64,000 nucleotides of DNA from Flectonema sp. DT1601 (Eukaryota). The translations under genes and the position numbers were made by a program. Positions 23,193 to 57,561 of the stretch are shown one piece after another. The stretch covers positions 1,302,001 through 1,366,000 of the forward strand of contig OZ025786.1 of NCBI GenBank assembly GCA_964019425.1, written 5' to 3'. Under the pieces are notes generated by a model. That model worked only from the letters and a program-made list of their open reading frames with translations, made no database searches and had not been told where the DNA came from. Numbering within the stretch: the stretch's first letter is position 1; each line of letters starts with the position of its first letter.

Positions 23193-26100
23193 GTGAACTA
23201 TCCAACCCTTGGACAATTCTGCTTGTCTAGGTTAGGAAGAGCCGACATTGAAGGATCAAAAGCAATGAACGCTTGGCTGGGTTTGCAGGCCCCAAAAGCT
23301 GAACGAAAAAATTGGGCCGTTCGAATCACTAACTTGCATGTTGTCGGTTGCAGTCATCACTCACCTGTCAGCATACTCTTTACCTTAATTACGCTCGATA
23401 TTGTTTCTGAGCCATTCTCTTTTCTATTTTTTTTTTTTTTTATTATTGCTACTTCACAACAAAAAAAAAAAGAAACACCGGGCCGGCGGTGTCATAAAGA
23501 TACTGGCAACCATCTCTCAGCCAACCCAGCCCCCGAGGCTTTGCAAGAGGCTATTTCGAGATCGGCTCTGGATGGGGATAAAACTTTAGTAGCCAAATGT
23601 CCTTTATGTTTTGAGACATACCTCAAAGGTCCAGTTGCGCATTTTAGACGTAACTGTAAGTTTAGTAAGGAATTTAAGGACTATAAGTCACGTTTTCCCC
23701 CATCTACCCACTCCCAAGTTAAAGATTGTTACCACTTACCTTGTCCAGAATGTGGTAAGCTTTTCAAAAGTATCGCTACGAGAGCGAAACACTGTGTTAA
23801 CGGTACATGTAAAGGTACACCTCTGTCTCCCCTCACAGGGAATAATTCAGACCTTGAACCTCCCTTTGTAGGAGAATCTGTAGATTTTAAAACTTCACAA
23901 ACAGCTTTCGTTCCTTATAACTCTACAACACCCACTTTTACCCCGTTACACCCGTCTCGTCTCAAATTCCGATCTTTTGGAACTGAATGGAAGGACATCG
24001 ACGTTTCTGCTGCAGAAAAACTTCAAACTTTCACCGTCGAAACAGAAAACTCTTCAAAACCTGCCGACCAACTTGATAAACTACTCAAAACGGTTTATCA
24101 AATATGTAGCGGTTTCTTTGAAGAAACAAAGCGGAATTTACCCCGCAAACAGAAATCAAGGGAAGAGGTCATCCTCGACCAAGAAAAACTTGAATGTCGT
24201 CTGGAAATGAAACAGCTAAGACAGGAGCTCCGCAAATCTGGGCCTTCTATAGAGAACGCTGTCAAATGGAAAGAGGCAAGAACGAGAATGAAAAGGATTT
24301 TCCGAATGTATCGGAATTTAGAAAAGAAAAATTTATTCAAAAAATTACAAGATAAATTTCGTCAAAATCCGTTTACTGCCATAAAAGAAGAACTCCAAAA
24401 AGAAGATCCTCAACCCCCCTCCCTTGATATTCCAGAGGAAAAAATAATTGAACATTTTAAAAACAATTATTGTGACAATGAAAAAAAAAAAACTGATTTC
24501 ACCCATCCCTCTTTTTTACCTAAGTCTGACTACAAGACAATGGATGATATCCAGTTCCCGAGCTTCGAACAGTTTGGTATTCTCTTATCAAAGAAAAAAA
24601 ACAAATGTGCCCCTGGTCCCAATTGCATACCTTATGTTGTATGGAAAAAGGTCCCAACTTTTATGGAAGCACTTTACAAGGTATTAAAGAGAATTTTCGA
24701 ACTCAAGGCCTATCCGGATAGTTGGGGCTTAGCATTTGTAACAATGCTCCCAAAGCCCAACTCCGATGGGAAAGACATCTCGAAAACGAGACCGATAGCT
24801 GTGGGCAACTGCGACGGGAAAATTTTTAATACGGTTATTCAGGAAGCTGTCGCAAGCCACACTCTTTCTAAATTTAATTTTCAAAAAGGCTTTAGGAAAG
24901 GTGTCTCTGGATGTATCGAACATGCCACGATCACCTCAGAGATTTTTAAAGAAGTGAAAGCTCTCCGGAAAAACCTAACAATTGTCTGGGTGGATTTGGC
25001 AGATGCTTTCGGCTCAGTCAAACATCAATTAATTTTCTTTGCTTTAAAATATTTCGGAATTCACGAAAGAATAATCGGTTTCTATAAAAGGTATTATTCC
25101 TCCATGCGCGTCCAAATCAGAGTTGGAGAAGGCCTGACGCCCACTATCCCTTTTGAAGTTGGTGTCTTTCAAGGCTGCGTTTCCTCCCCAACCCTTTTTA
25201 ATTTGGTATTCCAACTACTGCTCTTTTCCTTAGCAGTTCATCAACAGGAAGCCTACGAGTTTAACAATAAATCCCTCCAACTATTAGTTGCAGCTTTTGC
25301 TGATGATTTACAACTTACCACGTCATCAAAGGCGGGGGCAAAATTGCTAATCAAGTCGCTCGAACAGTTTCTTTCCTGGTCTCGAGGTATGAAAGCGAAA
25401 CCCCAGAAATGCATTGCCCACAGCTTTGTACAAGGGAAACCAGCTAACCCGGACCTGAAGATTAACAATGTTCCGATTACGAATCTCCAGGAAGCTGGAG
25501 AGTTCAAATACCTCGGGCGTTGGTTTGAGCCGAACGCCAAAGAACAGAAATTGCGAGAGCGCCTGACCACTTTTACCAGGAATTTTTTAAAAAAAGTCGA
25601 CGCCATGCCACTATATGGGTCTCAGAAGGCTTGGTCTGTCCAACACTTGTTATTGTCAAGGTTAACATGGAGTTTGATGATCCATGACTTATCTCTCCCT
25701 TTTGCCAAAAAAATGGACAAAATTATTAACCTTTTTTGAAGAAATGGTGGGGATTTGTCCGCTCTGCGAACACAGTCATCCTTTTTACCGGTTCAAAGAA
25801 CACTGTTGGTCTCAGACACAAAAGAGTTGAGACGCTATATAAACAAGCGCAATCAATTAAACTAGACATCCTCAGATCCTCACAGGACTCTGACATGCAC
25901 GGTGTCTACAATGTTATTATGGAGAAATCGTCCAACTGGTCGAAAAAGTTTTCAGCTTCTGCTGAGTGGGAGCGCCTTATTAAGTTTTTTTCTTACCGTT
26001 CTCTTGCGAAGCAATCAGCTGGTCTTGGTCACCGATTGCGCGATCTACGTACTACTCGCCCCGATCTCCTTAAGCGTTTTGAAGTGGAAGCCACAGATGA

Positions 26101-28253
26101 ACTACTGAACTCTTTGAATAAATTACAAGTCCAAGGTCAATGGAAGGAGTGGTCTAAATGTATGATAAACGACTTCACCTGGAATAAGGTACTTAGGGAG
26201 GGAAATCCTGCCTATATCTCATTTCAACTGAAAGCGGTTACAAACACCCTCCCCTCACAAGATAATTTAAAGAGGTGGAACATCACCAATGTGGACCAAA
26301 ATTGTGTTTTGTGTGGCAAAGTGAATCCTACCCTCAGGCATGTCTTAACAGGCTGTCCTGTCTCTTTAACACAAGGGAGGTTCACGTGGCGTCACGACAG
26401 CGTTCTAAAACGCATTGTTATCTTCTTGGAAGAGTTGATAATAAAAGCCAACAAAAGAAAAGAAAACCTCCCGCCTCCCTCTCAAACTTTTTTAAAAACA
26501 GGGGAAAATAAACCCCTAGAAAGAATTTCTAAAGAGACAGGCGAACTTTCACTAGCGAATGATTGGGTCATCCTCGACGATGTCGGTGATAACCGCCTAA
26601 TTGTTCCTCTTGAAGTGTGCCATGTCTCGTCCTCTCTAAGACCAGACATTTTTATTTATTCTTTTTTTGCGAAAAGAGCACTGATTTTGGAGCTGACGTG
26701 TCCAAATGAAGATCGTTTCGAAACCTCTCATGTCTTAAAGGAAAAGAAATACCTAAAGCTAAGAGACTCGATCATCGCTAATGGCTTCGACTGTAACATT
26801 TTTACTATTGAAGTTGGCGTACGAGGAAACATCTGCATGGACCAGCTGAACATCTGGACACGTCACATCGGTTCACCTTTAGCACCAACAAAAGCTTTAT
26901 TTTGTGAATGCACCAGAATCGCCAGACAGTGCTCATATGTTCTGTTCCAGACGAGGAACCTCCCCACGTGGCATTCAAGACCACTAATGCGCAGCATTAA
27001 AGAAGAACCTGCCACTGCAAGTTTTATAAAAGATGGTAAAGAAATCTTCCCTGTGGAAGAAGTCAAAATCCACAAAATAACAAAACTGAAAACGATCGAA
27101 AAGCTCACCATTGAAAGATCGTGGCTTGAGAAATGTTTTATCTGGCAAACTTGTTACGCATCGGCTCTTTCTATTCTACTTATTGCCAATGGTTCTTCCT
27201 CCCCGGCCCCTTCTGTTTTGTTAGATGAGGATGAGCTCACTGGACTCTCCTTGTCATTCTCTTCTATTTCTTCCATCTCTTTCCAGACTCCCCCACCTGA
27301 ACTCATGTCAACGGGATCGCAAACACTTCCTGCTGATTTCGCTATACTGCAACTGGAAATATTACTGCGCGGAAAAAACCGCACTAATTTCCAAATCTGC
27401 AAAAAACCGCACTAATTTTTCCACGCAGTAATATTTCCACCGCACTAATATTTCTGCTCAGAAGTGATTTTTTCTCCAGATGCATTTTTCTGCTGGTGCC
27501 TTACACAGCAAAAAAGCAACCAAATTTTTTTCTACCACCAGGTGGAAAAAACCGCGCTAATCTTTTCTCAAAAAAACCGCACTAATTTTTCCGCGCAGTA
27601 ATATTTCCCCGCAGTAATTATTCAGCGCAGTAATATTTCCAGTTGCAGTAGTGATAAGAACTCAATCTGACATGGGTTCTCAAACCCCCTTGTACAAAAA
27701 AAAAGAAGGAAAATTAAGGCTGAAACTTTCCTTGAAATGCCAGATTTTAGAAAACGAACTAGAACAAATGAAAGAACGAATGTTTTATGTTCTATTTTTA
27801 TTTTACTTTAATGCGATGTCAGCCTCCCTCGAGAAAGACAAGCAGTTACTAAATGGATTACCTGTTGAGATCAAAGCTACCAACCAGGATCCATCCTCAC
27901 TTCCTCCTGCACCCCCTGTTTTAATTATTGAAAAAGATAGAAAAGAATATGAACTTCTGGAAGGAGTAATTCAACGGTTAACAGCAGAACGCGATGAATC
28001 GAAGACTTCTCTTTCTGCACTAGTTCGACAATATGACTTAGTGGAAGATTACAGGAAACGTGAGCTCGCAAATCTGACTCAGAGAGCAGACCTATCGGAA
28101 ATGGCGCTCTTTAATTACCATCAAAGGTTTGTTCTTCTGTCGAACGAATTGGAGACCAAATGTAATGAGGAAAGAGAAAGTAAAATAAGACTTTTCTATA
28201 CTCAACAGGAGGTCGAGAGTTTGCGTGCCGCGCGTCCCCGTATGACCCACTTT
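23193..28253 (+). mobile_element. H copy 1 (outer): HERO-like R2-group non-LTR retrotransposon ORF, disrupted
   Basis: N-terminal Zn fingers (CPLC..HFRRNC; CPECGKLF..HC); RT (APGPN, RPIA, FQKGF, DLADAFGSV, GVFQGCVSSP, FADD, FKYLG); CVLC..HVLTGC; QGRFTWRHD; RPD..LELTCP..KKY..EVGVRG. One-base deletion near 25729 and a MITE at 27347. Confidence 0.9.
27347..27648. mobile_element. 302-bp MITE with TA target duplication (Tc1/mariner-type)
   Basis: 24-bp perfect TIR CTGCAACTGGAAATATTACTGCGC; empty site GCTATAGTG visible at ~32706 and ~42079; internal AAAAAACCGCACTAAT repeats. Confidence 0.9.
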
Positions 28254-30934
28254 TACCAGGAATTTTTTAAAAAAAGTCGACGCCATGCCACTATATGGGT
28301 CTCAGAAGGCTTGGTCTGTCCAACACTTGTTATTGTCAAGGTTAACATGGAGTTTAATGATCCATGACTTATCTCTCCCTTTTGCCAAAAAATTGGACAA
28401 AATTATTAAACCTTTTTTGAAGAAATGGTGGGGATTTGTCCGCTCTGCGAACACAGTCATCCTTTTTACCGGTTCAAAGAACACTGTTGGTCTCAGACAC
28501 AAAAGAGTTGAGACGCTATATAAACAAGCGCAATCAATTAAACTAGACATCCTCAGATCCTCACAGGACTCTGACATGCACGGTGTCTACAATGTTATTA
28601 TGGAGAAATCGTCCAATTGGTCGAAAAAGTTTTCAGCTTCTGCTGAGTGGGAGCGCCTTATTAAGTTTTTTTCTTACCGTTCTCTTGCGAAGCAATCAGC
28701 TGGTCTTGGTCACCGATTGCGCGATCTACGTACTACTCGCCCCGATCTCCTTAAGCGTTTTGAAGTGGAAGCCACAGATGAACTACTGAACTCTTTGAAT
28801 AAATTACAAGTCCAAGGTCAGTGGAAGGAGTGGTCTAAATGTATGATAAACGACTTCACCTGGAATAAGGTACTTAGGGAGGGAAATCCTGCCTATATCT
28901 CATTTCAACTGAAAGCGGTTACAAACACCCTCCCCTCACAAGATAATTTAAAGAGGTGGAACATCACCAATGTGGACCAAAATTGTGTTTTGTGTGGCAA
29001 AGTGAATCCTACCCTCAGGCATGTCTTAACAGGCTGTCCTGTCTCTTTAACACAAGGGAGGTTCACGTGGCGTCACGACAGCGTTCTAAAACGCATTGTT
29101 ATCTTCTTGGAAGAGTTGATAATAAAAGCCAACAAAAGAAAAGAAAACCTCCCGCCTCCCTCTCAAACTTTTTTAAAAACAGGGGAAAATAAACCCCTAG
29201 AAAGAATTTCTAAAGAGACAGGCGAACTTTCACTAGCGAATGATTGGGTCATCCTCGACGATGTCGGTGATAACCGCCTAATTGTTCCTCTTGAAGTGTG
29301 CCATGTCTCGTCCTCTCTAAGACCAGACATTTTTATTTATTCTTTTTTTGCGAAAAGAGCACTGATTTTGGAGCTGACGTGTCCAAATGAAGATCGTTTC
29401 GAAACCTCTCATGTCTTAAAGGAAAAGAAATACCTAAAGCTAAGAGACTCGATCATCGCTAATGGCTTCGACTGTAACATTTTTACTATTGAAGTTGGCG
29501 TACGAGGAAACATCTGCATGGACCAGCTGAACATCTGGACACGTCACATCGGTTCACCTTTAGCACCAACAAAAGCTTTATTTTGTGAATGCACCAGAAT
29601 CGCCAGACAGTGCTCATATGTTCTGTTCCAGACGAGGAACCTCCCCACGTGGCATTCAAGACCACTAATGCGCAGCATTAAAGAAGAACCTGCCACTGCA
29701 AGTTTTATAAAAGATGGTAAAGAAATCTTCCCTGTGGAAGAAGTCAAAATCCACAAAATAACAAAACTGAAAACGATCGAAAAGCTCACCATTGAAAGAT
29801 CGTGGCTTGAGAAATGTTTTATCTGGCAAACTTGTTACGCATCGGCTCTTTCTATTCTACTTATTGCCAATGGTTCTTCCTCCCCGGCCCCTTCTGTTTT
29901 GTTAGATGAGGATGAGCTCACTGGACTCTCCTTGTCATTCTCTTCTATTTCTTCCATCTCTTTCCAGACTCCCCCACCTGAACTCATGTCAACGGGATCG
30001 CAAACACTTCCTGCTGATTTCGCTATACTGCAACTGGAAATATTACTGCGCGGAAAAAACCGCACTAATTTCCAAATCTGCAAAAAACCGCACTAATTTT
30101 TCCACGCAGTAATATTTCCACCGCACTAATATTTCTGCTCAGAAGTGATTTTTTCTCCAGATGCATTTTTCTGCTGGTGCCTTACACAGCAAAAAAGCAA
30201 CCAAATTTTTTTCTACCACCAGGTGGAAAAAACCGCGCTAATCTTTTCTCAAAAAAACCGCACTAATTTTTCCGCGCAGTAATATTTCCCCGCAGTAATT
30301 ATTCAGCGCAGTAATATTTCCAGTTGCAGTAGTGATAAGAACTCAATCTGACATGGGTTCTCAAACCCCCTTGTACAAAAAAAAAGAAGGAAAATTAAGG
30401 CTGAAACTTTCCTTGAAATGCCAGATTTTAGAAAACGAACTAGAACAAATGAAAGAACGAATGTTTTATGTTCTATTTTTATTTTACTTTAATGCGATGT
30501 CAGCCTCCCTCGAGAAAGACAAGCAGTTACTAAATGGATTACCTGTTGAGATCAAAGCTACCAACCAGGATCCATCCTCACTTCCTCCTGCACCCCCTGT
30601 TTTAATTATTGAAAAAGATAGAAAAGAATATGAACTTCTGGAAGGAGTAATTCAACGGTTAACAGCAGAACGCGATGAATCGAAGACTTCTCTTTCTGCA
30701 CTAGTTCGACAATATGACTTAGTGGAAGATTACAGGAAACGTGAGCTCGCAAATCTGACTCAGAGAGCAGACCTATCGGAAATGGCGCTCTTTAATTACC
30801 ATCAAAGGTTTGTTCTTCTGTCGAACGAATTGGAGACCAAATGTAATGAGGAAAGAGAAAGTAAAATAAGACTTTTCTATACTCAACAGGAGGTCGAGAG
30901 TTTGCGTGCCGCGCGTCCCCGTATGACCCACTTT
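28254..30934 (+). repeat. 2,681-bp tandem duplication of the H ORF segment, including the MITE
   Basis: Identical junction CCCACTTT|TACCAGG at 28253 and 30934; ORF starts at 28285 and 30966 differ by 2,681. Confidence 0.9.
30028..30329. mobile_element. 302-bp MITE, duplicated copy
   Basis: Same TIRs and same site as 27347. Confidence 0.9.
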
Positions 30935-33900
30935 TACCAGGAATTTTTTAAAAAAAGTCGACGCCATGCCACTATATGGGTCTCAGAAGGCTTGGTCTGT
31001 CCAACACTTGTTATTGTCAAGGTTAACATGGAGTTTAATGATCCATGACTTATCTCTCCCTTTTGCCAAAAAATTGGACAAAATTATTAAACCTTTTTTG
31101 AAGAAATGGTGGGGATTTGTCCGCTCTGCGAACACAGTCATCCTTTTTACCGGTTCAAAGAACACTGTTGGTCTCAGACACAAAAGAGTTGAGACGCTAT
31201 ATAAACAAGCGCAATCAATTAAACTAGACATCCTCAGATCCTCACAGGACTCTGACATGCACGGTGTCTACAATGTTATTATGGAGAAATCGTCCAATTG
31301 GTCGAAAAAGTTTTCAGCTTCTGCTGAGTGGGAGCGCCTTATTAAGTTTTTTTCTTACCGTTCTCTTGCGAAGCAATCAGCTGGTCTTGGTCACCGATTG
31401 CGCGATCTACGTACTACTCGCCCCGATCTCCTTAAGCGTTTTGAAGTGGAAGCCACAGATGAACTACTGAACTCTTTGAATAAATTACAAGTCCAAGGTC
31501 AGTGGAAGGAGTGGTCTAAATGTATGATAAACGACTTCACCTGGAATAAGGTACTTAGGGAGGGAAATCCTGCCTATATCTCATTTCAACTGAAAGCGGT
31601 TACAAACACCCTCCCCTCACAAGATAATTTAAAGAGGTGGAACATCACCAATGTGGACCAAAATTGTGTTTTGTGTGGCAAAGTGAATCCTACCCTCAGG
31701 CATGTCTTAACAGGCTGTCCTGTCTCTTTAACACAAGGGAGGTTCACGTGGCGTCACGACAGCGTTCTAAAACGCATTGTTATCTTCTTGGAAGAGTTGA
31801 TAATAAAAGCCAACAAAAGAAAAGAAAACCTCCCGCCTCCCTCTCAAACTTTTTTAAAAACAGGGGAAAATAAACCCCTAGAAAGAATTTCTAAAGAGAC
31901 AGGCGAACTCTCACTAGCGAATGATTGGGTCATCCTCGACGATGTCGGTGATAACCGCCTAATTGTTCCTCTTGAAGTGTGCCATGTCTCGTCCTCTCTA
32001 AGACCAGACATTTTTATTTATTCTTTTTTTGCGAAAAGAGCACTGATTCTGGAGCTGACGTGTCCAAATGAAGATCGTTTCGAAACCTCTCATGTCTTAA
32101 AGGAAAAGAAATACCTAAAGCTAAGAGACTCGATCATCGCTAATGGCTTCGACTGTAACATTTTTACTATTGAAGTTGGCGTACGAGGAAACATCTGCAT
32201 GGACCAGCTGAACATCTGGACACGTCACATCGGTTCACCTTTAGCACCAACAAAAGCTTTATTTTGTGAATGCACCAGAATCGCCAGACAGTGCTCATAT
32301 GTTCTGTTCCAGACGAGGAACCTCCCCACGTGGCATTCAAGACCACTAATGCGCAGCATTAAAGAAGAACCTGCCACCGCAAGTTTTATAAAAGATGGTA
32401 AAGAAATCTTCCCTGTGGAAGAAGTCAAAATCCACAAAGTAACAAAACTGAAAACGATCGAAAAGCTCACCATTGAAAGATCGTGGCTTGAGAAATGTTT
32501 TATCTGGCAAACTTGTTACGCATCGGCTCTTTCTATTCTACTCATTGCCAATGGTTCTTCTTCCTCCCCGGCCCCTTCTTTTTTGTTAGATGAGGATGAG
32601 CTCACTGGACTCTCCTTGTCATTCTCTTCTATTTCTTCCATCTCTCTCCAGAATTCCCCACCTGAACTCATGTCAACGGGATCGCAAACACTTCCTGCTG
32701 ATTTCGCTATAGTGATAAGAAGTCAATCTGACATGGGTTCCCAAACCCCCTTGTACAATAAAAAAGAAGGAAGATTAAGGCTGAAACTTTCCTTGAAATG
32801 CCAGATTTTAGAAAACGAACTAGAACAAATGAAAGAACGAATGTTTTATGTTCTATTTTTATTTTACTTTAATGCGATGTCAGCCTCCCTTGAGAATGAC
32901 AAGCAGCTACTGAATGGATTGTCTATTGAGAACAAAGCATCCAAACAACGGGCCGCCGAGAGTGTATCTCACAGCCCACTCCCTTTAAATCTATCCGCAC
33001 CCCCATCTGTCTTTAACGTAGAAACGGAACAGAAAAAACGTGAACTATTGGAAAAAGAGAATCAACACCTGATCGCTGAATGTGATTTAGTGAAAAGTTC
33101 TCTTCTCTCATTAGTTCAAAGAACTAACTCTCTGGAGGAAAAAAGGACGAGCGAGCTGGCGCGACAATCACAAAGAGCGGACCACGCTGAAATGTTTTAT
33201 TTCAACTTACAACAAAGGTTCATTCTATTAAACAATGAATTAGAATCTAAGTGTAGGGACGAAACTGGAACAAAAATTCAACTCTATTTGTCTCAACAAG
33301 AGGTCGCAACATTGCGTGCTGGCCCTCAACTGTCCCATTTTTCCCAACAATTTTCCCCAACACCCCCTTTTTTATTCGAATCAACGTCCACGGTAAAGAA
33401 TTATCGACTCCCTCTCATCGCAACAACCTATTACTCCTGGACTCCCAAACCCCGTCTTTCCTTTTTTTTTAAACCTCATTCTCCATTGATCACGTTCCCT
33501 TCTGAACTGTCTCAAAGTAGACTACTGGTATCGTCTTCTGCTCAAACGGAACAAGAAAAAGACAGTGCGGCGACCTCATCGACGGAAGATTCACCTATTG
33601 CGAGGCAATGGTCCGAAGGTAGACTCGATTTACTGGACAACTACTGTCAAGCGGTAAGTGACTCTCTCCAGACAAATGAGAAAGTGGCGCTGCTCTCGGA
33701 AAAACTAGTGGAAGAGCAACGTCGATGCTCCGAGTTGAGCTATCAACAGAAGACTATCCATAAAGAACAACTGGATCATTCCATGTTGTTGATGGAGATG
33801 GCCAGTGAGCTCTCTGAGCAACTCTATTTGGCAAAAGACCAAAACAGAGCTCTCAAATTTCAGTTACAAACATGGGCAAATGGTTTTAACCCACCCGAAA

Positions 33901-34505
33901 AGGAAGCGCAAGAAGAAAATGAGACCCCAAAGCGTCCGAGGGAGCGCCTATCCCAAAAAAAGCGAACTCCACCCTCAACGAATCCTCATGATCGCAGAAG
34001 AATCTTTTTAGATGACGATTGCTAAGTTCTAGTTTCTATTAGTATTAAATTATTTGTATTATTTTGTCGATATGTTTATGTCTGTCCGATCATAACGTCA
34101 ATCAGATTAATTGTTAATTGTAATTGGTTTGAGCGCTTATCAAAAAAAAAAAAAAGCGAACTCCAACCTCAACGAACTTTCATGATCGCAGAAGAATCTT
34201 TTTAGATGACGATTGCTAAGTTCTAGTTTCTATTAGTATTTATTTATTTGTATTATTTTGTCGATATGTTTATGTCCGTCAGATCATAACGTTAATCAGA
34301 TTAATTGTCAATTGTTAATTGTAAATGGTCTAAACCCCAATCCAAGTTCCCAAGGCTTGGCATAGATTTGAGTGACGCCTTACTGGCCTCCTCATCCTCT
34401 ATGAGTGGTGAGGGGGCCAGCAATGGTTTTTTTTTTTTTTCTCTTATTTCCTTTTTTCTTTTTCTTTTACTCTAATAGGAAATATTTTTGAACAAAATGT
34501 GATTA

Positions 34506-34540
<35 letters not shown>

Positions 34541-36297
34541 AATGAATAATAAAAAAAAAAAAAAAAAAAAAAACATGCCTTGGGAATACAACCAAAGCCC
34601 CAATTAATCGGTCCTTTCTTTTTTCCTTCTTGTCAAGTGATCGCTCCACTCGTCGATCACCAAAACCGATTGTATTTATATCTGTTCTTTTCTCAACGAT
34701 CGGCTATACCGATCTTTTTTTTAAAAATAATTGTTTTCTTCTTCTCGACGATCAGATCCAATTGATCGACCTTTTCTTTTTTTTTCCTTTATTCCTTCCA
34801 TCCCTCCCGCTCCCCTTATTTTAATAAAAACAAGATCAGCACAGCTTGATCGTTAAACTTTTTTTATTTATTTATTTTTTTTTTTTTTTTTATTTAAACT
34901 GATTGTATTTATATCTGGTTATTTTTCTCAACGATCGGCTATGCCGATCGACCATTAAAATAATTGTCTTCTTCTTCTCGACGACCAGATCCAATTGATC
35001 GACCTTTTCTTTTTTTTTCCTTTATTCCTTCCATCCCTCCCGCTCCCCTTATTTTAATAAAAACAAGATCAGCTCAGCTTGATCGTTATTTATTTATTTA
35101 TTTATTTTTTTTTTTTTTTTGTTGGTCCTAGTCAAGACCTTAAACTGACTAATCGGTCTTAACTTTAACTAAGTGAATGAACCCTTTCCGTTTTCCTTTT
35201 CCCTTTATTACTCTCTATCTGGTCTGTTATGTCATAAATCTCATTTAATTTTATCATTCATTTTAATTTTCACTGTTTCCCATCTACATTTTATTTTCAA
35301 ATAGTTCCGGTCTGTCTCTGATGTTAAATAAAACTGATCATGTTAACTCAATATTTTTTTTTATTATGTGCAAGAGATACCAACACGCAAGAGATACCAA
35401 CGCACATACGAGATACCAGCACTTCCGAGATACCGACACACAAGAGATACCAAGACACTTAAGATACCAGCAAGGACAGTGAGAGGTAGAATGAACTCTC
35501 CTCCTTGTGTCCGATCCTGATTATTTTTTGTTGAATTGGTAGTGTTACCTCAGTTTGCTACTCTCGTATCTGTGTTGTGTTAACTCATGTAAGTGATCTT
35601 AACTCCTGTTAAATAAAAAAAAAATTTCAAAAAAAAAGAAATTAAAAAAGAAGAATTTTCAAATGAAGTTATATCAACCCCTGCCACCCATTATGATCAA
35701 TTCCGCTTGTTTTTTTTTTTTTTTTTTTTTTTTTCTTCTTTCTTTTCTTCAAATATAAAAAAAAATTAAAAAATATAAAAGATGAAACAATGTTATCATT
35801 GTTTTTTTTATCGATCGACTATGTCGATTACTTCCAGTTTTCCGTCCTGGTCAAGACGCTAAACTGATTGTTTTTTTTTTTTTTTTTAAAAAATTAATAA
35901 AAAGAATATAAAAAAAAAAAAAAAAGAATAAACAATGTTATCATTGTTTTTTTTTATCGTTCGACTTTGTCGACTAATTTCTATTTTCCGTTTCTTTTCT
36001 TTAAATAATAAATAAAAAGAATTTAAAATAAAAAAAAAGAATAAACAATGTTATCATTGTTTTTTTATCGATCGACTATGTCGATTACTTTCTATTTTCC
36101 GTCCTGGTCAAGACGCTAAACTGATTGTTTTTTTTTCAAAATTAATAAAAAAGAATAAAAAAAAAAAAAAAAAAAAAAAGAATAAACAATGTTATCATTG
36201 TTTTTTTATCGATCGACTATGTCGATCACTTTCTATTTTCCGTCCTGGTCAAGACGCTAAACTGATTGTTTTTTTTTTCAAAATTAATAAAAAAGAA

Positions 36298-36328
<31 letters not shown>

Positions 36329-38956
36329 GAATAAACAATGTTATCATTGTTTTTTTTATCGTTCGACTTTGTTGACTAATTTCTATTTTCCGTTTTTTTT
36401 CTTTTAAAAAATAAATAAAAAGAATTTAAAATAAAAAAAAAGAATAAACAATGTTATCATTGTTTTTTTATCGATCGACTATGTCGATCACTTTCTATTT
36501 TCCGTCCTGGTCAAGACGCTAAACTGATTGTTTTTTTTCAAAATTAATAAAAAAGAATATAAAAAAAAAAAAAAAAAAGAATAAACAATGTTATCATTGT
36601 TTTTTTTTTTATCGTTCGACTTTGTCGACTAATTTCTATTTTCCGTTTCTTTTCTTTAAAGAATAAATAAAAAGAATTTAAAATAAAAAAAAAGAATAAA
36701 CAATGCTATCATTGTTTTTTTTATCGATCGACTATGTCGATCACTTTCTATTTTCCGTCCTGGTCAAGACGCTAAACTGATTGTTTTTTTTTTTCAAAAT
36801 TAATAAAAAAGAATATAAAAAAATACAAAAAAAAAGAATAAACAATGTTATCATTGTTTTTTTTTATCGTTCGACTTTGTCGACTAATTTCTATTTTCCG
36901 TTTTTTTTCTTTTAAAAATAAATAAAAAGAATTTAAAATAAAAAAAAAGAATAAACAATGTTATCATTGTTTTTTTATCGATCGACTATGTCGATCACTT
37001 TCTATTTTCCGTCCTGGTCAAGACGCTAAACTGATTGTTTTTTTTTTTTCAAAATAAAAAAAAAATATTAAAAAAAAAAAAATAAAAAAAAAAAAGAATA
37101 AACAATGTTATCATTGTTTTTCTTTATCGTTCGACTTTGTTGACTAATTTCTATTTTCCGTTTTTTTTTCTTTAAAAAATAAATAAAAAGAATTTAAAAA
37201 AAAAAAAAAAAAAAAAAGAATAAACAATGTTATCATTGTTTTTTTTATCGATCGACTATGTCGATTACTTTCTATTTTCCGTCCTGGTCAAGACGCTAAA
37301 CTGATTGTTTTTTTTCAAAATTAATAAAAAAGAATATAAAAAAATACAAAAAAAAGAATAAACAATGTTATCATTGTTTTCTTTATCGATCGACTATGTC
37401 GATTACTTTCTATTTTCCGTCCTGGTCAAGACGCTAAACTGATTGTTTTTTTTTCAAAATTAATAAAAAAGAATATAAAAAAATACAAAAAAAAGAATAA
37501 ACAATGTTATCATTGTTTTTTTTATCGATCGACTATGTCGATTACTTTCTATTTTCCGTCCTGGTCAAGACGCTAAACTGATTGTTTTTTTTTCAAAATT
37601 AATAAAAAAGAATATAAAAAAATACAAAAAAAAGAATAAACAATGTTATCATTGTTTTTTTTATCGATCGACTATGTCGATTACTTTCTATTTTCCGTCC
37701 TGGTCAAGACGCTAAACTGATTGTTTTTTTTTTCAAAATTAATAAAAAAGAATATAAAAAAATACAAAAAAAAGAATAAACAATGTTATCATTGTTTTTT
37801 TTATCGATCGACTATGTCGATTACTTTCTATTTTCCGTCCTGGTCAAGACGCTAAACTGATTGTTTTTTTTTTCAAAATAAAAAAAAAATATTAAAAAAA
37901 AAAAAATAAAAAAAAAGAATAAACAATGTTATCATTGTTTTTTTTTATCGTTCGACTTTATTGACTAATTTCTATTTTCCGTTTTTTTTCTTTAAAAAAT
38001 AAAAAAAAAGAATTTAAAAAAAAAAAAAAAAAAAGAATAAACAATGTTATCATTGTTTTTTTTATCGATCGACTATGTCGATTACTTTCTATTTTCCGTC
38101 CTGGTCAAGACGCTAAACTGATTGTTTTTTTTTCAAAATTAATAAAAAAAAAGAATATAAAAAAATACAAAAAAAAGAATAAACAATGTTATCATTGTTT
38201 TTTTTTATCGTTCGACTTTGTCGACTAATTTCTATTTTCCGTTTTTTTTCTTTAAAAAATTAATAAAAAGAATTTAAAATAAAAAAAAAAAAGAATAAAC
38301 AATGTTATCATTGTTTTTTTTATCGATCGACTATGTCGATTACTTTCTATTTTCCGTCCTGGTCAAGACGCTAAACTGATTGTTTTTTTTTTCAAAATTA
38401 ATAAAAAAGAATATAAAAAAAATAAAAAAAAAAAAGAATAAACAATGTTATCATTGTTTTTTTTTATCGTTCGACTTTGTTGACTAATTTCTATTTTCCA
38501 TTTTTTTTCTTTTTAAAAATAAATAAAAAGAATTAAAATAAAAAAAAAAAAAAAAGAATAAACAATGTTATCATTGTTTTTTTTATCGATCGACTATGTC
38601 GATTACTTTCTATTTTCCGTCCTGGTCAGGACGCTAAACTGATTGTTTTTTCTTTAAAAATAAATAAAAAGAATAAAAAAAAAAAAAAAAGGAATAAACA
38701 ATGTTATCATTGTTTTTTTTTTATCGATCGACTATGTCGATTACTTACTATTTTCCGTCCTGGTCAAGACGCTAAACTGATTGTTTTTTCTTTAAAATAA
38801 TTAAAAAGATTTAAAAAAAAAAAAAAAAAAAAAAAATGAATAAACAATGTTATCATTGTTTTTTTTTCTATCGATCAACTATGTCGATTAATTTCTATTT
38901 TCCGTCCTGATCGAGACGCTAAACTGATTGTTTCCTTTTTTTAAATAATAAATAAG

Positions 38957-38988
<32 letters not shown>

Positions 38989-39387
38989 ATCTCCCTGCTA
39001 TCCCTCATATCCCCACAATAATATTATACCTTTTCATTTTCTCTTTCCTTTTCTGGTCTTTTTTTTTTTCTTTTTTTCCTTTTTCATACAACGTTTTTTA
39101 TTTATATATATATATTTTTTTTTTTTTTTTTCATGTTTGATTATTTCCTCTTCATTTTTTTTTTTCTTTTCTTTTCTTTCTTTTTTTTTTTTTTTCCTCT
39201 GCCTCTCTCTTAATTCTGTTCGTTTCTTTGAAACGAAAATTCATTTGAATATTATTCCTTGGTCAGCAACCATCATTGTCGCCCTTTGGGCCTGTTAAAA
39301 AAAAATAAAATAAAAAGAAAGTTTACATCGGGAATAGGGCAGGAGCCAAAAGCTCCCAGTCCGTTACTTCCCACTTTATCGAAATTC
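30935..39387 (+). mobile_element. H copy 3: 5'-truncated ORF (variant B tail, stop 34025), 3' UTR, satellite array and cap
   Basis: The host-copy sequence CCCACTTT^AGTCAACAAG is split exactly around it and resumes at 39388. Confidence 0.85.
35780..38960 (+). repeat. Satellite array of ~139-bp (A) and ~113-bp (B) units
   Basis: Core GAATAAACAATGTTATCATTG(T)nATCGATCGACTATGTCGAT...TTTTCCGTCCTGGTCAAGACGCTAAACTGATTG; A-unit starts at 37356, 37495 and 37634. Confidence 0.95.
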
Positions 39388-39524
39388 AGTCAACAAGTTT
39401 CCCCCCGAACCCCCGTTCTGTATGAATCTGTTGCTATGATGAAGATAGCAAAGAACTACCTCTCGCTCTTTACAACTACGAGTAGTCTTTTTACTCCTCT
39501 TATTAAACCCCTTATCCCTACCCT
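39388..39524 (+). pseudogene. Resumed fragment of the outer H ORF
   Basis: Matches ~42688-42824. Confidence 0.85.
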
Positions 39525-42500
39525 GGTCAAGACGCTAAACTGATTGTTTTTTTTTTCAAAATAAAAAAAATATTAAAAAAAAAAAAATAAAAAAAAAGAA
39601 TAAACAATGTTATCATTGTTTTTTTTTTATTGTTCGACTTTGTTGACTAATTTCTATTTTCCGTTTTTTTTTCTTTAAAAAATAAATAAAAAGAATTTAA
39701 AAAAAAAAAAAAAAAAAGAATAAACATTGGATTTGGCAGATGCTTTCGGCTCAGTCAAACATCAATTAATTTTCTTTGCTTTAAAATATTTCGGAATTCA
39801 CGAAAGAATAATCGGTTTCTATAAAAGGTATTATTCCTCCATGCGCGTCCAAATCAGAGTTGGAGAAGGCCTGACGCCCACTATCCCTTTTGAAGTTGGT
39901 GTCTTTCAAGGCTGCGTTTCCTCCCCAACCCTTTTTAATTTGGTATTCCAACTACTGCTCTTTTCCTTAGCAGTTCATCAACAGGAAGCCTACGAGTTTA
40001 ACAATAAATCCCTCCAACTATTAGTTGCAGCTTTTGCTGATGATTTACAACTTACCACGTCATCAAAGGCGGGGGCAAAATTGCTAATCAAGTCGCTCGA
40101 ACAGTTTCTTTCCTGGTCTCGTGGTATGAAAGCGAAACCCCAGAAATGCATTGCCCACAGCTTTGTACAAGGGAAACCAGCTAACCCGGACCTGAAGATT
40201 AACAATGTTCCGATTACGAATCTCCAGGAAGCTGGAGAGTTCAAATACCTCGGGCGTTGGTTTGAGCCGAACGCCAAAGAACAGAAATTGCGAGAGCGCC
40301 TGACCACTTTTACCAGGAATTTTTTAAAAAAAGTCGACGCCATGCCACTATATGGGTCTCAGAAGGCTTGGTCTGTCCAACACTTGTTATTGTCAAGGTT
40401 AACATGGAGTTTAATGATCCATGACTTATCTCTCCCTTTTGCCAAAAAAATGGACAAAATTATTAAACCTTTTTTGAAGAAATGGTGGGGATTTGTCCGC
40501 TCTGCGAACACAGTCATCCTTTTTACCGGTTCAAAGAATACTGTTGGTCTCAGACACAAAAGAGTTGAGACGCTATATAAACAAGCGCAATCAATTAAAC
40601 TAGACATCCTCAGATCCTCACAGGACTCTGACATGCACGGTGTCTACAATGTTATTATGGAGAAATCGTCCAACTGGTCGAAAAAGTTTTCAGCTTCTGC
40701 TGAGTGGGAGCGCCTTATTAAGTTTTTTTCTTACCGTTCTCTTGCGAAGCAATCAGCTGGTCTTGGTCACCGATTGCGCGATCTACGTACTACTCGCCCC
40801 GATCTCCTTAAGCGTTTTGAAGTGGAAGCCACAGATGAACTACTGAACTCTTTGAATAAATTACAAGTCCAAGGTCAATGGAAGGAGTGGTCTAAATGTA
40901 TGATAAACGACTTCACCTGGAATAAGGTACTTAGGGAGGGAAATCCTGCCTATATCTCATTTCAACTGAAAGCGGTTACAAACACCCTCCCCTCACAAGA
41001 TAATTTAAAGAGGTGGAACATCACCAATGTGGACCAAAATTGTGTTTTGTGTGGCAAAGTGAATCCTACCCTCAGGCATGTCTTAACAGGCTGTCCTGTC
41101 TCTTTAACACAAGGGAGGTTCACGTGGCGTCACGACAGCGTTCTAAAACGCATTGTTATCTTCTTGGAAGAGTTGATAATAAAAGCCAACAAAAGAAAAG
41201 AAAACCTTCCGCCTCCCTCTCAAACTTTTTTAAAAACAGGGGAAAATAAACCCCTAGAAAGAATTTCTAAAGAGACAGGCGAACTTTCACTAGCGAATGA
41301 TTGGGTCATCCTCGACGATGTCGGTGATAACCGCCTAATTGTTCCTCTTGAAGTGTGCCATGTCTCGTCCTCTCTAAGACCAGACATTTTTATTTATTCT
41401 TTTTTTGCGAAAAGAGCACTGATTCTGGAGCTGACGTGTCCAAATGAAGATCGTTTCGAAACCTCTCATGTCTTAAAGGAAAAGAAATACCTAAAGCTAA
41501 GAGACTCGATCATCGCTAATGGCTTCGACTGTAACATTTTTACTATTGAAGTTGGCGTACGAGGAAACATCTGCATGGACCAGCTGAACATCTGGACACG
41601 TCACATCGGTTCACCTTTAGCACCAACAAAAGCTTTATTTTGTGAATGCACCAGAATCGCCAGACAGTGCTCATATGTTCTGTTCCAGACGAGGAACCTC
41701 CCCACGTGGCATTCAAGACCACTAATGCGCAGCATTAAAGAAGAACCTGCCACTGCAAGTTTTATAAAAGATGGTAAAGAAATCTTCCCTGTGGAAGAAG
41801 TCAAAATCCACAAAGTAACAAAACTGAAAACGATCGAAAAGCTCACCATTGAAAGATCGTGGCTTGAGAAATGTTTTATCTGGCAAACTTGTTACGCATC
41901 GGCTCTTTCTATTCTACTTGTTGCCAATGGTTCTTCCTCCCCGGCCCCTTCTGTTTTGTTAGATGAGGATGAGCTCACTGGACTCTCCTTGTCATTCTCT
42001 TCTATTTCTTCCATCTCTTTCCAGACTCCCCCACCTGAACTCATGTCAACGGGATCGCAAACACTTCCTGCTGATTTCGCTATAGTGATAAGAACTCAAT
42101 CTGACATGGGTTCTCAAACCCCCTTGTACAAAAAAAAAGAAGGAAAATTAAGGCTGAAACTTTCCTTGAAATGCCAGATTTTAGAAAACGAATTAGAGCA
42201 AATGAAAGAACGAATTTTTTATGTTCTATTTTTATTTTACTTTAATGCGATGTCAGCCTCCCTCGAGAAAGACAAGCAGTTACTAAATGGATTACCTGTT
42301 GAGATCAAAGCTACCAACCAGGATCCATCCTCACTTCCTCCTGCACCCCCTGTTTTAATTATTGAAAAAGATAGAAAAGAATATGAACTTCTGGAAGGAG
42401 TAATTCAACGGTTAACAGCAGAACGCGATGAATCGAAGACTTCTCTTTCTGCACTAGTTCGACAATATGACTTAGTGGAAGATTACAGGAAACGTGAGCT

Positions 42501-43738
42501 CGCAAATCTGACTCAGAGAGCAGACCTATCGGAAATGGCGCTCTTTAATTACCATCAAAGGTTTGTTCTTCTGTCGAACGAATTGGAGACCAAATGTAAT
42601 GAGGAAAGAGAAAGTAAAATTAGACTTTTCTATACTCAACAGGAGGTCGAGAGTTTGCGTGCCGCGCGTCCCCGTATGACCCACTTTAGTCAACAAGTTT
42701 CCCCCCGAACCCCCGTTCTGTATGAATCTGTTGCTATGATGAAGATAGCAAAGAACTACCTCTCGCTCTTTACAACTACGAGTAGTCTTTTTACTCCTCT
42801 TATTAAACCCCTTATCCCTACCCTTAATTATATCACCCCTCTTTGTCCTCTAGCCTCAATTCCTCCGACAATGCCGCAGAGTGAAGCTCTCGACCGCACG
42901 CCGACCAAGATTTTACGACAAGAGAGTCACGTTATCTCCGTTAAAGAGAATACACCTATTGCGAGACAATGGTCCGAGGGTAGGATTGACTTACTCGAGA
43001 ACTACTGTCGAGCAGTAGATGACTCTCTCGAAACAAACGAGAAAGCGGCAGAGCTCTCAGAACAACTTCTGGATGCCCAACTTCGCCTCTCGGAGCTGAA
43101 TCACCAACGGTGTACAACTCACGCAGAGCAGCTTGAGCAATCCATGATGTTAACGGGACTGGCGAGCGATTTAAATGCTCAACTCGCTTTGGCACGGTCT
43201 CAAATTGCGGCCCTGAAGTTCCAATTAGCTTCATGGGCAGAAGGTTTGAGTCCGCCAGACACAGAAGAACATGAGGAAAATGAAACTCCGCCGAGAAAGT
43301 CTGAGCGTTCAACTCTGAAAAAACGAACCCCTCCATCAAGATATCGTTACAATCGAAGGAGATGTTCTGCTGATGACGTTCACGGTGACTCCACCCCCTT
43401 GTAATTCTCTTTTTCCTTACTTTCACATCACTTTGTTTATTTAGTTTTTTAGCTTATTTATTATTTATTGTTCGTTTTTGTTTGTATTATTTTATCGATA
43501 TGTTTATGTCCGTCAGATCATAACGTTAATCAGGTTAATTGTTAATTGTTAATTATAAATGGTCTAAACCCCAATCCAAGTTCCCAAGGCTTGGCATAGA
43601 TTTGAGTGACGCCTTACTGGCCTCCTCATCCTCTATGAGTGGTGAGGGGGCCAGCAATGGTTTTTTTTTTTTTCTCTTATTTCTTTTTTTCTTTTTCTTT
43701 TACTCTAATATGAAATATTTTTGAACAAAATGTGATTA

Positions 43739-43770
<32 letters not shown>

Positions 43771-45024
43771 TGTAAATGAATAATAAAAAAAAAAAAAAAA
43801 AAAAATCATGCCTTGGGAATACAACCAAAGCCCCAATTAATCGGTCCTTTCTTTTTTCCTTCTTGTCAAGTGATCGCTCCACTCGTCGATCACCAAAACC
43901 GATTGTATTTATATCTGTTCTTTTCTCAACGATCGGCTATACCGATCATTTTTTTTAAAAATAATTGTTTTCTTCTTCTCGACGATCAGATCCAATTGAT
44001 CGACCTTTTCTTTTTTTTTCCTTTATTCCTTCCATCCCTCCCGCTCCCCTTATTTTAATAAAAACAAGATCAGCTCAGCTTGATCGTTAAACTTTTTTTA
44101 TTTATTTATTTTTTTTTTTTATTTATTTAAACTGATTGTATTTATATCTGGTTATTTTTCTCAACGATCGGCTATGCCGATCGACCTTTAAAATAATTGT
44201 CTTCTTCTTCTCGACGACCAGATCCAATTGATCGACCTTTTCTTTTTTTTTCCCTTTATTCCTTCCATCCCTCCCGCTCCCCTTATTTTAATAAAAACAA
44301 GATCAGCTCAGCTTGATCGTTATTTATTTATTTATTTATATATTTTTTTTTTTTTTTTTTTTTTTTTGTTGGTCCTAGTCAAGACCTTAAACTGACTAAT
44401 CGGTCTTAACTTTAACTAAGTGAATGAACCCTTTCCGTTTTCCTTTTCCCTTTATTACTCTCTATCTGGTCTGTTATGTCATAAATCTCATTTAATTTTA
44501 TCATTCATTTTAATTTTCACTGTTTCCCATCTACATTTTATTTTCAAATAGTTCCGGTCTGTCTCTGATGATAAATTAAACTGATCATGTTAACTCAATT
44601 TTTTTTTTATTATGTGCAAGAGATACCAACACGCAAGAGATACCAACGCACATACGAGATACCAGCACTTCCGAGATACCGACACACAAGAGATACCAAG
44701 ACACTTAAGATACCAGCAAGGACAGTGAGAGGTAGAATGAACTCTCCTCCTTGTGTCCGATCCTGATTATTTTTTGTTGAATTGGTAGTGTTACCTCATT
44801 TTGCTACTCTCGTATCTGTGTTGTGTTAACTCATGTAAGTGATCTTAACTCCTGTTAAATAAAAAAAAAAAAATTTCAAAAAAAAAGAAATTAAAAAAGA
44901 AGAATTTTCAAATGAAGTTATATCAACCCCTGCCACCCATTATGATCAATTCCGCTTGTTTTTTTTTTTTTCTTTTTTCTTCTTTCTTTTCTTCAAATAT
45001 AAAAAAAAATTAAAAAATATAAAA

Positions 45025-48000: not shown

Positions 48001-49100
48001 AACTGATTGTTTTTTTTTTTTTTTCAAAATTAATAAAAAAGAATATTAAAAAAAATACAAAAAAAAAAAGAATAAACAATGTTATCATTGTTTTTTTTTT
48101 TATCGTTCGACTTTGTCGACTAATTTCTATTTTCCGTTTTTTTTCTTTAAAAAATAAATAAAAAGAATTTAAAATAAAAAAAAAGAATAAACAATGTTAT
48201 CATTGTTTTTTTTTATCGATCGACTATGTCGATTACTTTCTATTTTCCGTCCTGGTCAAGACGCTAAACTGATTGTTTTTTTTTTCAAAATAAAAAAAAT
48301 ATTAAAAAAAAAAAATAAAAAAAAAGAATAAACAATGTTATCATTGTTTTTTTTTTTATCGTTCGACTTTGTTGACTAATTTCTATTTCCGTTTTTTTTC
48401 TTTAAAAAATAAATAAAAAGAATTTAAAAAAAAAAAAAAAAAAAAGAATAAACAATGTTATCATTGTTTTTTTTATCGATCGACTATGTCGATTACTTTC
48501 TATTTTCCGTCCTGGTCAAGACGCTAAACTGATTGTTTTTTTTTCAAAATAAAAAAAATATTAAAAAAAAAAAAATAAAAAAAAGAATAAACAATGTTAT
48601 CATTGTTTTTTTTTATCGTTCGACTTTGTTGACTAATTTCTATTTTCCGTTTTTTTTCTTTAAAAAATTAATAAAAAGAATTTAAAAAAAAAAAAAAAAA
48701 GAATAAACAATGTTATCATTGTTTTTTTTATCGATCGACTATGTCGATTACTTTCTATTTTCCGTCCTGGTCAAGACGCTAAACTGATTGTTTTTTCTTT
48801 AAAAATAAATAAAAAGAATAAAAAAAAAAAAAAAGGAATAAACAATGTTATCATTGTTTTTTTTTTATCGATCGACTATGTCGATTACTTACTATTTTCC
48901 GTCCTGGTCAAGACGCTAAACTGATTGTTTTTTCTTTAAAATAATTAAAAAGATTTAAAAAAAAAAAAAAAAAAAAAAAATGAATAAACAATGTTATCAT
49001 TGTTTTTTTTTCTATCGATCAACTATGTCGATTAATTTCTATTTTCCGTCCTGATCGAGACGCTAAACTGATTGTTTCCTTTTTTTAAATAATAAATAAG
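45025..49100 (+). repeat. Satellite array, mostly alternating A/B units
   Basis: Same units; same first and last units as 35780-38960. Confidence 0.95.
45669..45970. mobile_element. 302-bp MITE, independent insertion into satellite
   Basis: Same TIRs, TA on both sides, a few substitutions versus 27347. Confidence 0.9.
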
Positions 49101-50307: not shown

Positions 50308-50477
50308 AGGAATAGGGCAGGAGCCAAAAGCTCCCAGTCCGTTACTTCCCACTTTATCGAAATTCATTATATCACCCCTCTTTGTCCTCTAGCCTCAATT
50401 CCTCCGACAATGCCGCAGAGTGAAGCTCTCGACCGCACGCCGACCAAGATTTTACGACAAGAGAGTCACGTTATCTC

Positions 50478-54302: not shown

Positions 54303-54337
<35 letters not shown>

Positions 54338-54704: not shown

Positions 54705-54738
<34 letters not shown>

Positions 54739-57540: not shown

Positions 57541-57561
57541 AAAGATTAAACAATGTTATCA

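What the first reader, a model, noticed from the sequence alone, without database searches (positions are those of the whole stretch)
30935..39387. Retrotransposon whose mobile unit includes a multi-kb satellite array
Seen: the order ORF, ~1.7-kb UTR, 3-4 kb satellite, ~400-bp cap recurs at 30935-39387 and 39728-50365. The interrupted host sequence resumes exactly after the cap (CCCACTTT...GAAATTC|AGTCAAC), so the array moved together with the ORF. Arrays share the same first unit and the same last units and vary in the middle. Known: R2-group/HERO 3' UTRs are normally short. Inference: an RT-driven satellite-seeding system, possibly building centromeric or subtelomeric chromatin.
Basis: partly seen in the sequence, partly recalled or inferred. 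Interest (0 to 1): 0.92.

Follow-up and report, generated by a model that had tools for sequence, protein, structure and literature searches.

The report
Jumping gene carrying its own satellite
A reverse-transcriptase jumping gene in an unidentified eukaryote has a 3-4 kb block of tandem repeats built into its own tail and likely copies that block to new sites through RNA, but nothing here shows that it builds centromeres.

Summary
The unit is an RLE-type (R2-superfamily, HERO-like) non-LTR retrotransposon: RT, CCHC knuckle, endonuclease, an orphan 564-aa helical extension, 1.6-1.8 kb UTR, an array of 115/140-bp monomers and a 402-bp cap. The window holds 8 cap ends. All stop at the same place (6 exactly), 5' ends vary from 0.22 to 10.8 kb, and 5 sites with an empty copy lose 0-2 target bases with no duplication: the signature of target-primed reverse transcription. 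Three ORF-UTR-array-cap copies exist, not two; the third has only 5 monomers against 24 and 29. Arrays keep terminal units and block order, and the UTR holds older monomer-like motifs, so the array is likely native to the element. The extension comes in two forms, 50% identical and under purifying selection, on near-identical chassis. Copies nest in each other inside a 54-kb repeat island. No RNA or raw long reads were available; no independent contig spans an array. A centromere or subtelomere role is untested. Arrays inside retrotransposon UTRs are known (Ogre, FoTeR/MoTeR); a multi-kb 3' array in an RLE element was not found in 9 literature searches. New variant of a known kind.

The parts
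23190..25739 (+). Copy A, 5' part of the ORF: two N-terminal Cys/His motifs and the RT domain; frame shifts near 25730; true 5' end lies about 23290-23480
   Evidence: (RVT_1 1.2e-26)
25730..28253 (+). Copy A, thumb, CCHC knuckle, RLE and start of the helical extension, split by a 306-bp TA-flanked MITE at 27344-27650
28247..30934 (+). 2681-bp tandem duplicate, a B/A recombinant (4 B-type sites, then 9 A-type sites, one crossover between 28821 and 29229)
30928..34025 (+). Copy B ORF, 5'-truncated after the RT core: thumb, CCHC, RLE, B-type extension
34026..35784 (+). Copy B 3' UTR, with 194-bp and 233-bp duplications and diverged monomer-like motifs
35785..38984 (+). Copy B array, 24 monomers (long about 140 bp, short about 115 bp), 21% GC
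38985..39387 (+). Copy B cap; predicted stem-loop at 39330-39372; ends GAAATTC with no poly(A) tail
39388..39524 (+). Copy A coding sequence resumes (equals 42688-42824)
39525..39727 (+). Array fragment at the 5' end of the second insertion (template switch or later recombination)
39724..43404 (+). Copy C ORF, 1226 aa open, 5'-truncated inside the RT; C-type extension of 564 aa after the RLE
43405..45028 (+). Copy C 3' UTR, 99.6% identical to B's in aligned columns after homopolymer trimming
45029..49125 (+). Copy C array, 29 monomers, with the MITE at 45666-45972 and a 528-bp higher-order duplication
49126..50365 (+). Copy C cap, split by an 836-bp insert at 49474-50310; A resumes at 50366 with 2 nt lost
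53098..53422 (-). 325-bp cap-only insertion in A's coding region, 1 nt lost, altered last bases
53848..56145 (+). Copy F: truncated inside the array (13 monomers) plus cap, inserted in A's UTR, 2 nt lost
56146..59470 (+). Copy A UTR (diverged type, about 94% to B/C), 5-monomer array 57548-58270, cap split by a TA-flanked TIR element at about 58409-59187
59471..64000 (+). Further array segments (to 62026 and from 62980) with two other inserts; runs off the window, no cap seen
19700..20435 (+). Copy P: 2 monomers plus cap inserted in a Penelope-like RT ORF
20567..22249 (+). UTR piece of another copy (E), holding a reversed 0.22-kb cap insertion (20939-21167, 2 nt lost) and an 836-bp insert
15177..16229 (-). 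Copy M: 4 monomers plus cap, cut by a TIR element at 16230
10143..10806 (+). Third, older variant of the helical extension, cut by a TIR element

Best explanation
This is an RLE-type non-LTR retrotransposon whose 5.4-6 kb 3' non-coding region contains a tandem array, and which likely copies that array with itself by target-primed reverse transcription starting at the cap. Shown: domain order, shared 3' end, variable 5' ends, 0-2 nt target loss, nesting. Inferred steps: a transcript of up to about 11 kb runs through ORF, UTR, array and cap; the protein binds the cap stem-loop; the endonuclease nicks DNA with little sequence preference inside repeat-rich regions; the RT starts at the cap end and drops off at random, giving cap-only, array+cap and ORF-bearing copies; the second nick falls 0-2 nt upstream and the 5' end joins by microhomology. 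Afterwards unequal exchange and slippage change the middle of the array while edge units persist. The array likely arose by tandem amplification of a UTR motif and most likely acts as a passenger or as a repeated protein-binding or promoter element of the transposon itself, not as a host structure. The helical extension is a selected part of the protein; it would most plausibly oligomerise or tether the particle.
For: 8 cap ends, 6 ending exactly GAAATTC and 2 with altered last bases, 8 different flanks, both orientations. Target loss 0, 2, 2, 1, 2 nt at the 5 sites with an empty copy; 5' microhomology at 2 of them; B. germanica R2 deletes 3 nt (PMC7650587). RT, CCHC, RH, PD, E, K..KY and RG motifs intact (motifs named in PMC4838377); best PDB match R2 protein at 9.9e-22. 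5 of 49 family proteins from ENA contigs of 5 different lengths join the cap end to the element's ORF at places not seen in the window, and 2 join array to ORF. Contigs of 2 of 4 public runs run from the C-type coding region into the UTR. Arrays B and C share the order of variant blocks; 15 of 24 units collinear at 2 edits, reached by 4 of 2000 shuffles. UTR holds the monomer's palindrome with a compensatory A-T to G-C swap and aligns to the monomer above 200 of 200 shuffles in 2 of 5 segments. Extension dN 0.37, dS about 2.35 (near saturation) over 343 codons. The tandem duplicate is a single-crossover mosaic, as unequal exchange predicts.
Against: No transcript or raw long read was seen; no independent contig spans an array or the array-cap joint (repeats were skipped). 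Collinearity is weak at other thresholds: 235 and 86 of 2000 shuffles at 1 and 3 edits. The UTR-monomer match failed in 3 of 5 segments. Copy A has only 5 monomers, so long arrays could have grown after insertion. The stem-loop scores z -3.15 in 88 nt but z -0.67 in 148 nt, and identical copies give no covariation. The array holds 57 AATAAA motifs and 25 runs of 9 or more A, which could end transcripts early. Copy A's two flanks do not form one simple target.
Confidence: 0.82

Rival explanations
1. The element moves with a short array (about 5 units) and multi-kb arrays grow only after insertion by DNA slippage and unequal exchange.
For: Copy A has 5 monomers; B and C differ in the middle and C has a 528-bp higher-order duplication; unequal exchange is visible at 28247-30934.
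Against: B and C are young (dS 0.016 over 469 codons) yet both have 24-29 units in the same block order; F is truncated inside an array with 13 units left; A's units 2-5 match the last units of B, which looks like a contraction.
Confidence: 0.1
2. UTR+array+cap is a separate non-autonomous element (SINE-like or Helentron-like with central tandem repeats) that sits behind the RT ORF by chance or targeting.
For: 5 of 8 capped copies have no ORF; cap depth exceeds ORF depth 1.5-5 fold in 3 runs (rough); Helitron/Helentron elements often hold central arrays (PMC12628747).
Against: Three copies show the same ORF-UTR order, B sits in a target with zero bases lost and no inner breakpoint, ORF-less copies start at random places inside array or cap, no Rep/helicase ORF of 150 aa or more in the window.
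Confidence: 0.04
3. The long arrays or nesting are assembly artefacts of a homopolymer-rich repeat.
For: No raw reads seen; long A and T runs; 99.6% identical duplicates; a frameshift in an A-run of copy A.
Against: Each array has its own ordered variants, junctions are base-precise with different flanks, nested elements have target duplications, and independent short-read contigs hold ORF, UTR, monomers, cap and the empty site.
Confidence: 0.04

Closest known systems
HERO clade RLE non-LTR retrotransposons (R2 superfamily)
   Same: Single ORF with RT, CCHC and RLE; mostly not site-specific (PMC4640811, passages). Closest database relatives are 28-37% identical and include sponge, ctenophore, mollusc and fish proteins; the WRH[DN], RPD and ELT motifs are in 114-117 of 118 of them. 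That these motifs mark HERO is recalled.
   Different: 564-aa orphan extension (relatives: median 15 aa past the RLE, 18 of 107 over 100 aa) and a 5.4-6 kb 3' non-coding region. Clade assignment could not be tested without labelled references.
R2 and R2-like BLAG elements
   Same: Domain order, 5' truncation, short target deletion (PMC7650587, PMC13580325, passages); PDB R2 match 9.9e-22.
   Different: 3' UTR is 600 bp in B. germanica R2 and 132-241 bp in BLAG; here about ten times longer. None of 8 3' junctions is in rDNA.
FoTeR / MoTeR and CRE-SLACS RLE elements with internal tandem repeats
   Same: RLE elements carrying variable tandem repeats that expand and contract (PMC12857005, PMC7367193, PMC12278014, passages).
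   Different: FoTeR repeats are many short motifs totalling at most 1395 bp, mostly 5'; their 3' UTRs are 336-409 bp; they target telomere repeats or SL genes. Here one 115/140-bp family fills 3-4 kb of the 3' end, the part every truncated copy keeps.
Ogre LTR retrotransposons with 3' UTR tandem arrays
   Same: Arrays at a fixed place downstream of the coding region, dispersed with the element; 9 of 11 Lathyrus satellites arose so (PMC7004042, abstract and section 7). Best functional analogue.
   Different: Ogre is an LTR/integrase element. Expansion into long free arrays is shown there and not here.
Helitron/Helentron (DINE-1) central tandem repeats; HeT-A/TART-derived 18HT satellite
   Same: Conserved ends around a variable array; 3' UTR of a non-LTR element as source of satellite (PMC12628747, PMC9659126, passages).
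   Different: Rolling-circle DNA mechanism in the first; in the second the satellite derives from decayed elements rather than travelling in an intact one.

Membership tests
RLE non-LTR retrotransposon (R2 superfamily) | Single ORF with RT, then CCHC knuckle, then PD-(D/E)...K endonuclease | tested here: met
   RVT_1, zf-RVT; C440-C457, RH 469, PD 553, E 569, K..KY 585, RG 613 in copy C; R2 PDB hits
RLE non-LTR retrotransposon (R2 superfamily) | N-terminal zinc fingers | tested here: met
   Two C-x2-C...H...C motifs in copy A; not recognised by Pfam
RLE non-LTR retrotransposon (R2 superfamily) | Fixed 3' end, variable 5' truncation, no LTRs | tested here: met
   8 of 8 cap ends at one place, inserts 0.22-10.8 kb
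RLE non-LTR retrotransposon (R2 superfamily) | RNA intermediate and TPRT activity | not testable with these tools
   No RNA holder listed
R2 clade in the strict sense | Insertion at the 28S rDNA site | tested here: not met
   0 of 8 3' flanks are rDNA; a 28S-like fragment lies just 5' of copy A but is not the R2 site junction
HERO clade | Groups with Repbase HERO elements in an RT tree | not testable with these tools
   70-sequence tree has no labelled references; long branch inside a 17-member group with support 1.0 that includes a Sycon protein
HERO clade | Mostly no strict target site | tested here: met
   8 unrelated flanks; feature from PMC4640811
Classical satellite DNA | Long contiguous arrays independent of a mobile element | tested here: not met
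   Longest array 4.1 kb, 6 of 6 intact right ends capped; window only, genome not held
Centromeric or subtelomeric retrotransposon | Clustering at centromeres or chromosome ends; centromeric histone binding | not testable with these tools
   No genome or chromatin data; no telomere-type repeat among the 150 of 193 tandem-repeat rows shown
Helitron/Helentron | Rep/helicase ORF and fixed termini at both ends without target loss | tested here: not met
   No such Pfam hit among 10 long ORFs scanned; 5' ends vary and 1-2 nt are lost at 4 of 5 sites

The most novel reading that the evidence does not exclude
A self-building chromosome domain: the orphan coiled-coil extension steers insertion into the element's own islands, the hairpin-palindrome array that every truncated copy delivers is the binding platform, and the nested islands serve as the centromeres of this eukaryote, with two anciently diverged extension alleles kept on one chassis by conflict with the host.
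Probability: 0.12. Interest if true: 0.88.

Novelty: new variant of a known kind. Interest (0 to 1): 0.58.

Why it matters
It gives a non-LTR counterpart to the Ogre route from transposon to satellite, with a twist: because TPRT starts at the 3' end, the array is the part that nearly every new copy delivers, so satellite-like DNA spreads faster than the gene (13.3 kb of array in this 64-kb window). It makes the question of how satellites disperse directly testable, since each array has a dated insertion, a defined start and a defined end. It also points to an RT that likely crosses more than 5 kb of homopolymer-rich, 79% AT template from a small 3' handle, and to a selected 564-aa domain with no relative outside this family among 1.84 billion proteins.

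Tried and rejected
No whole genome is held, so genome-wide mapping was not possible. Exact scans for a 24-base cap motif found 0 loci in JGI metagenomes, IMG/VR and GTDB. No RNA holder listed. Run X6 laid 0 contigs on the cap stretch, and the arrays and T-rich cap interior were skipped by the laying tool. An own HDV-like ribozyme pattern found 0 matches in 22200-23700; Rfam found no ribozyme at the element. ARAGORN found 0 tRNAs. AlphaFold2 of the extension gave long helices only (mean pLDDT 48, pTM 0.20), too weak for a fold search, which was not run. Atlas look-alikes were generic coiled coils such as Spindly with low recognition (1666) and under 170 shared features: not evidence for a kinetochore link. 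A (C/T)AA(A/C) motif near the 3' flank was seen in 4 of 8 sites against 9% background, but the pattern was chosen after looking. Insertion into own-family sequence (6 of 8) is no higher than the family's 68% share of the island, so sequence-specific self-targeting is not supported. A search for longer relatives found no intact full-length form among 8 hits (weak evidence). The host organism was not identified: host genes gave only distant or unnamed hits. No earlier finding of this scan came up. No complex prediction was run.
Full report
Setting. The window is eukaryotic. Three intronless host-type ORFs lie on the minus strand at 1-9754 (RNF213-like AAA protein, YbjQ-like, RRM protein), and the first sits on a 1.39-Mb ENA contig. 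From 10 kb to the window's end there is a nest of repeats, 68% of it (36.9 of 54 kb) from one family. The organism was not identified and no genome is held.

Observation check. Both units are as described. Copy B is one 8460-bp insertion, 30928-39387. Its target is seen empty at 42680-42694; the 3' joint loses no base and the 5' joint has about 10 nt of microhomology. The empty form is also in contigs of 3 of 4 public runs. The interrupted sequence is the coding region of a third copy, A, which runs from about 23.3 kb to 59470 and holds 4 family insertions (B, C, a 325-bp reversed cap, and F) plus 3 unrelated inserts. The second insertion starts at 39525 with 0.2 kb of array before the RT. That is either a template switch or a later recombination between arrays.

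The protein. RT (Pfam 1.2e-26), CCHC knuckle and the RH, PD, E, K..KY and RG motifs that PMC4838377 (passages) names for the R2 endonuclease are all present. The best solved match is an R2 protein at 9.9e-22. Relatives are 28-37% identical. By recalled motifs it is HERO-like, but a 70-sequence tree had no labelled references. After the endonuclease the frame stays open for 563-564 aa; 107 of 118 relatives could be aligned to this point, with a median tail of 15 aa and 18 tails over 100 aa, some with other domains, so C-terminal add-ons recur in this group. This extension found 19 hits among 1.84 billion proteins, all pieces of this same family. It is predicted as long helices with low confidence. 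B and C are nearly identical in RT/RLE (dS 0.016 over 469 codons), UTR (99.6%) and cap (100%), yet their extensions are 50% identical with dN 0.37 and dS near saturation; a third variant lies at 10143-10806. So an old, selected module is exchanged on a young chassis. The two forms have clusters of 235 and 47 members; the 30 listed members lie on contigs of 27 different lengths, 19 of them over 240 kb. Whether these are one assembly is not known.

The 3' end. The window has 8 cap ends, 5 on plus and 3 on minus. Six end exactly in GAAATTC, two have altered last bases, none has a poly(A) tail, and all flanks differ. Insert lengths run from 0.22 to 10.8 kb. At the 5 sites with an empty copy, 0, 2, 2, 1 and 2 target bases are lost and none is duplicated; PMC7650587 (passages) reports a 3-nt loss for cockroach R2. 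Of 49 family proteins tested, 7 read into the cap; 5 of them join its end to the ORF at places not in the window, one matches the window's own joint and one holds an inner piece; 2 join array to ORF. A stem-loop is predicted 15-57 nt from the end (z -3.15, 0 of 200 shuffles in 88 nt; z -0.67, 52 of 200 in 148 nt). PMC13580325 (passages) states that the R2 protein binds the 3' UTR to position the RNA end, so the cap is the likely handle.

The array. Monomers are about 140 and 115 bp, often alternating, 21% GC, each with two short palindromes. Copies hold 24 (B), 29 (C), 13 (F, truncated), 5 (A), 4 (M, cut) and 2 (P, truncated) units. Terminal units are shared by position. B and C show the same order of variant blocks; collinearity was 11, 15 and 16 of 24 units at 1, 2 and 3 edits, reached by 235, 4 and 86 of 2000 shuffles, which is moderate support for a long ancestral array. 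The UTR carries the monomer's palindrome with a compensatory swap and aligned above all 200 shuffles in 2 of 5 segments, so the array likely grew from the element's own UTR. Of 9 array segments, 6 end in the cap and 3 are cut by an insert or the window edge. Contig depths give about 21-40 monomers per cap in 3 runs. The tool warns against reading these as copy numbers, but they give no hint of large free arrays.

Independent support and its limit. Short-read contigs of 4 public runs hold the RLE region nearly unchanged, and 2 of them run from the C-type coding region into the UTR. None spans an array. The 2681-bp duplicate at 28247 is a clean B/A mosaic (4 B sites, then 9 A sites), as unequal crossing-over predicts. 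No RNA holder was listed.

Mechanism. Shown: anatomy, joints, nesting, selection on the extension. Inferred: a transcript of up to about 11 kb, cap recognition, nicking with little sequence preference, reverse transcription from the cap through the array with random drop-off, a near-blunt second nick, and later change of the array's middle by unequal exchange. Since copying starts at the 3' end, cap and array are delivered more often than the gene. I put this at 0.82. Growth only after insertion (0.10), a separate non-autonomous element (0.04) and artefact (0.04) are the rivals. What the array does for the element is open; passenger or repeated cis-element is my best guess. Own-family targets (6 of 8) match the family's share of the island, so the preference looks regional.

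Comparison. Arrays inside retrotransposons are known: Ogre 3' regions gave 9 of 11 Lathyrus satellites (PMC7004042, abstract and section 7); FoTeR, MoTeR and CRE RLE elements carry repeats, in FoTeR at most 1395 bp and mostly 5', with 3' UTRs of 336-409 bp (PMC12857005, PMC7367193, PMC12278014, passages); Helentrons hold central arrays and HeT-A/TART gave the 18HT satellite (PMC12628747, PMC9659126, passages). A centromere atlas lists three ways in which transposons form tandem repeats, none an array carried inside an intact LINE (10.64898/2026.09.17.752431, passages and section 9). PMC4640811, PMC9004415 and PMC10088271 were seen as passages only. Nine searches listed no RLE element with a multi-kb 3' array or a coiled-coil tail. 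The library lacks Repbase Reports and most subscription journals, and no supplements were read, so an entry there cannot be excluded.

Verdict. A real and unusual element, a new variant of a known kind. Interest 0.58.

Noticed in passing
window 60447-61604 and 16230-17240: A TIR element starting GGGAAAACC with a 9-bp target duplication (Mutator-like by recalled features) carries 28S rRNA fragments, one beginning at the recalled R2 target region, and a tRNA-like piece.
   Followed up: partly
window 22250-23290: A second block starting GGGAAAACC with a tRNA-like piece and reversed 28S fragments lies directly 5' of copy A; its other end is not in the window.
   Followed up: partly
window 17569-19824 (minus): RT ORF that looks Penelope-like (recalled) followed by an OTU protease domain and Cys-rich motifs instead of a recognised nuclease; interrupted by copy P.
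   Followed up: partly
window 49474-50310, 50479-52883, 21363-22196, 14432-15176, 12273-12491: An 836-bp non-coding element with fixed ends, once as a direct repeat around a 520-bp spacer; about 110 bp of it resemble the retrotransposon's UTR at 35200-35312 in the opposite orientation.
   Followed up: partly
window 27344-27650, 30025-30331, 45666-45972; 58409-59187; 10806-11820: Three different TIR elements without a long ORF; two are flanked by TA. All sit inside copies of the retrotransposon family.
   Followed up: no
window 13633-14517: ORF fragment with a weak recombination endonuclease VII hit (0.0065), resembling the polymerase-associated region of Polinton-type elements (recalled).
   Followed up: no
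window 1-6747 (minus): Intronless RNF213-like AAA protein, 3623 aa in full, with paralogues at 94% and 87% on other ENA contigs; best non-self hits are unnamed EukProt proteins.
   Followed up: partly
window 11183-11266 (minus): Weak twister-P1 ribozyme match (31.3 bits, gathering 67.2) inside a TIR element; probably chance.
   Followed up: no
window 62027-63031: A 950-bp GC-richer insert ending in a long A-rich run splits the last array; no long sense ORF.
   Followed up: partly
P0038, P0049, P0057, P0068, P0080, P0089: Relatives of this RT carry other domains in long tails after the endonuclease (PF00443, PF14487; ubiquitin hydrolase and DarT by recall), so the group seems prone to C-terminal domain capture.
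   Followed up: partly
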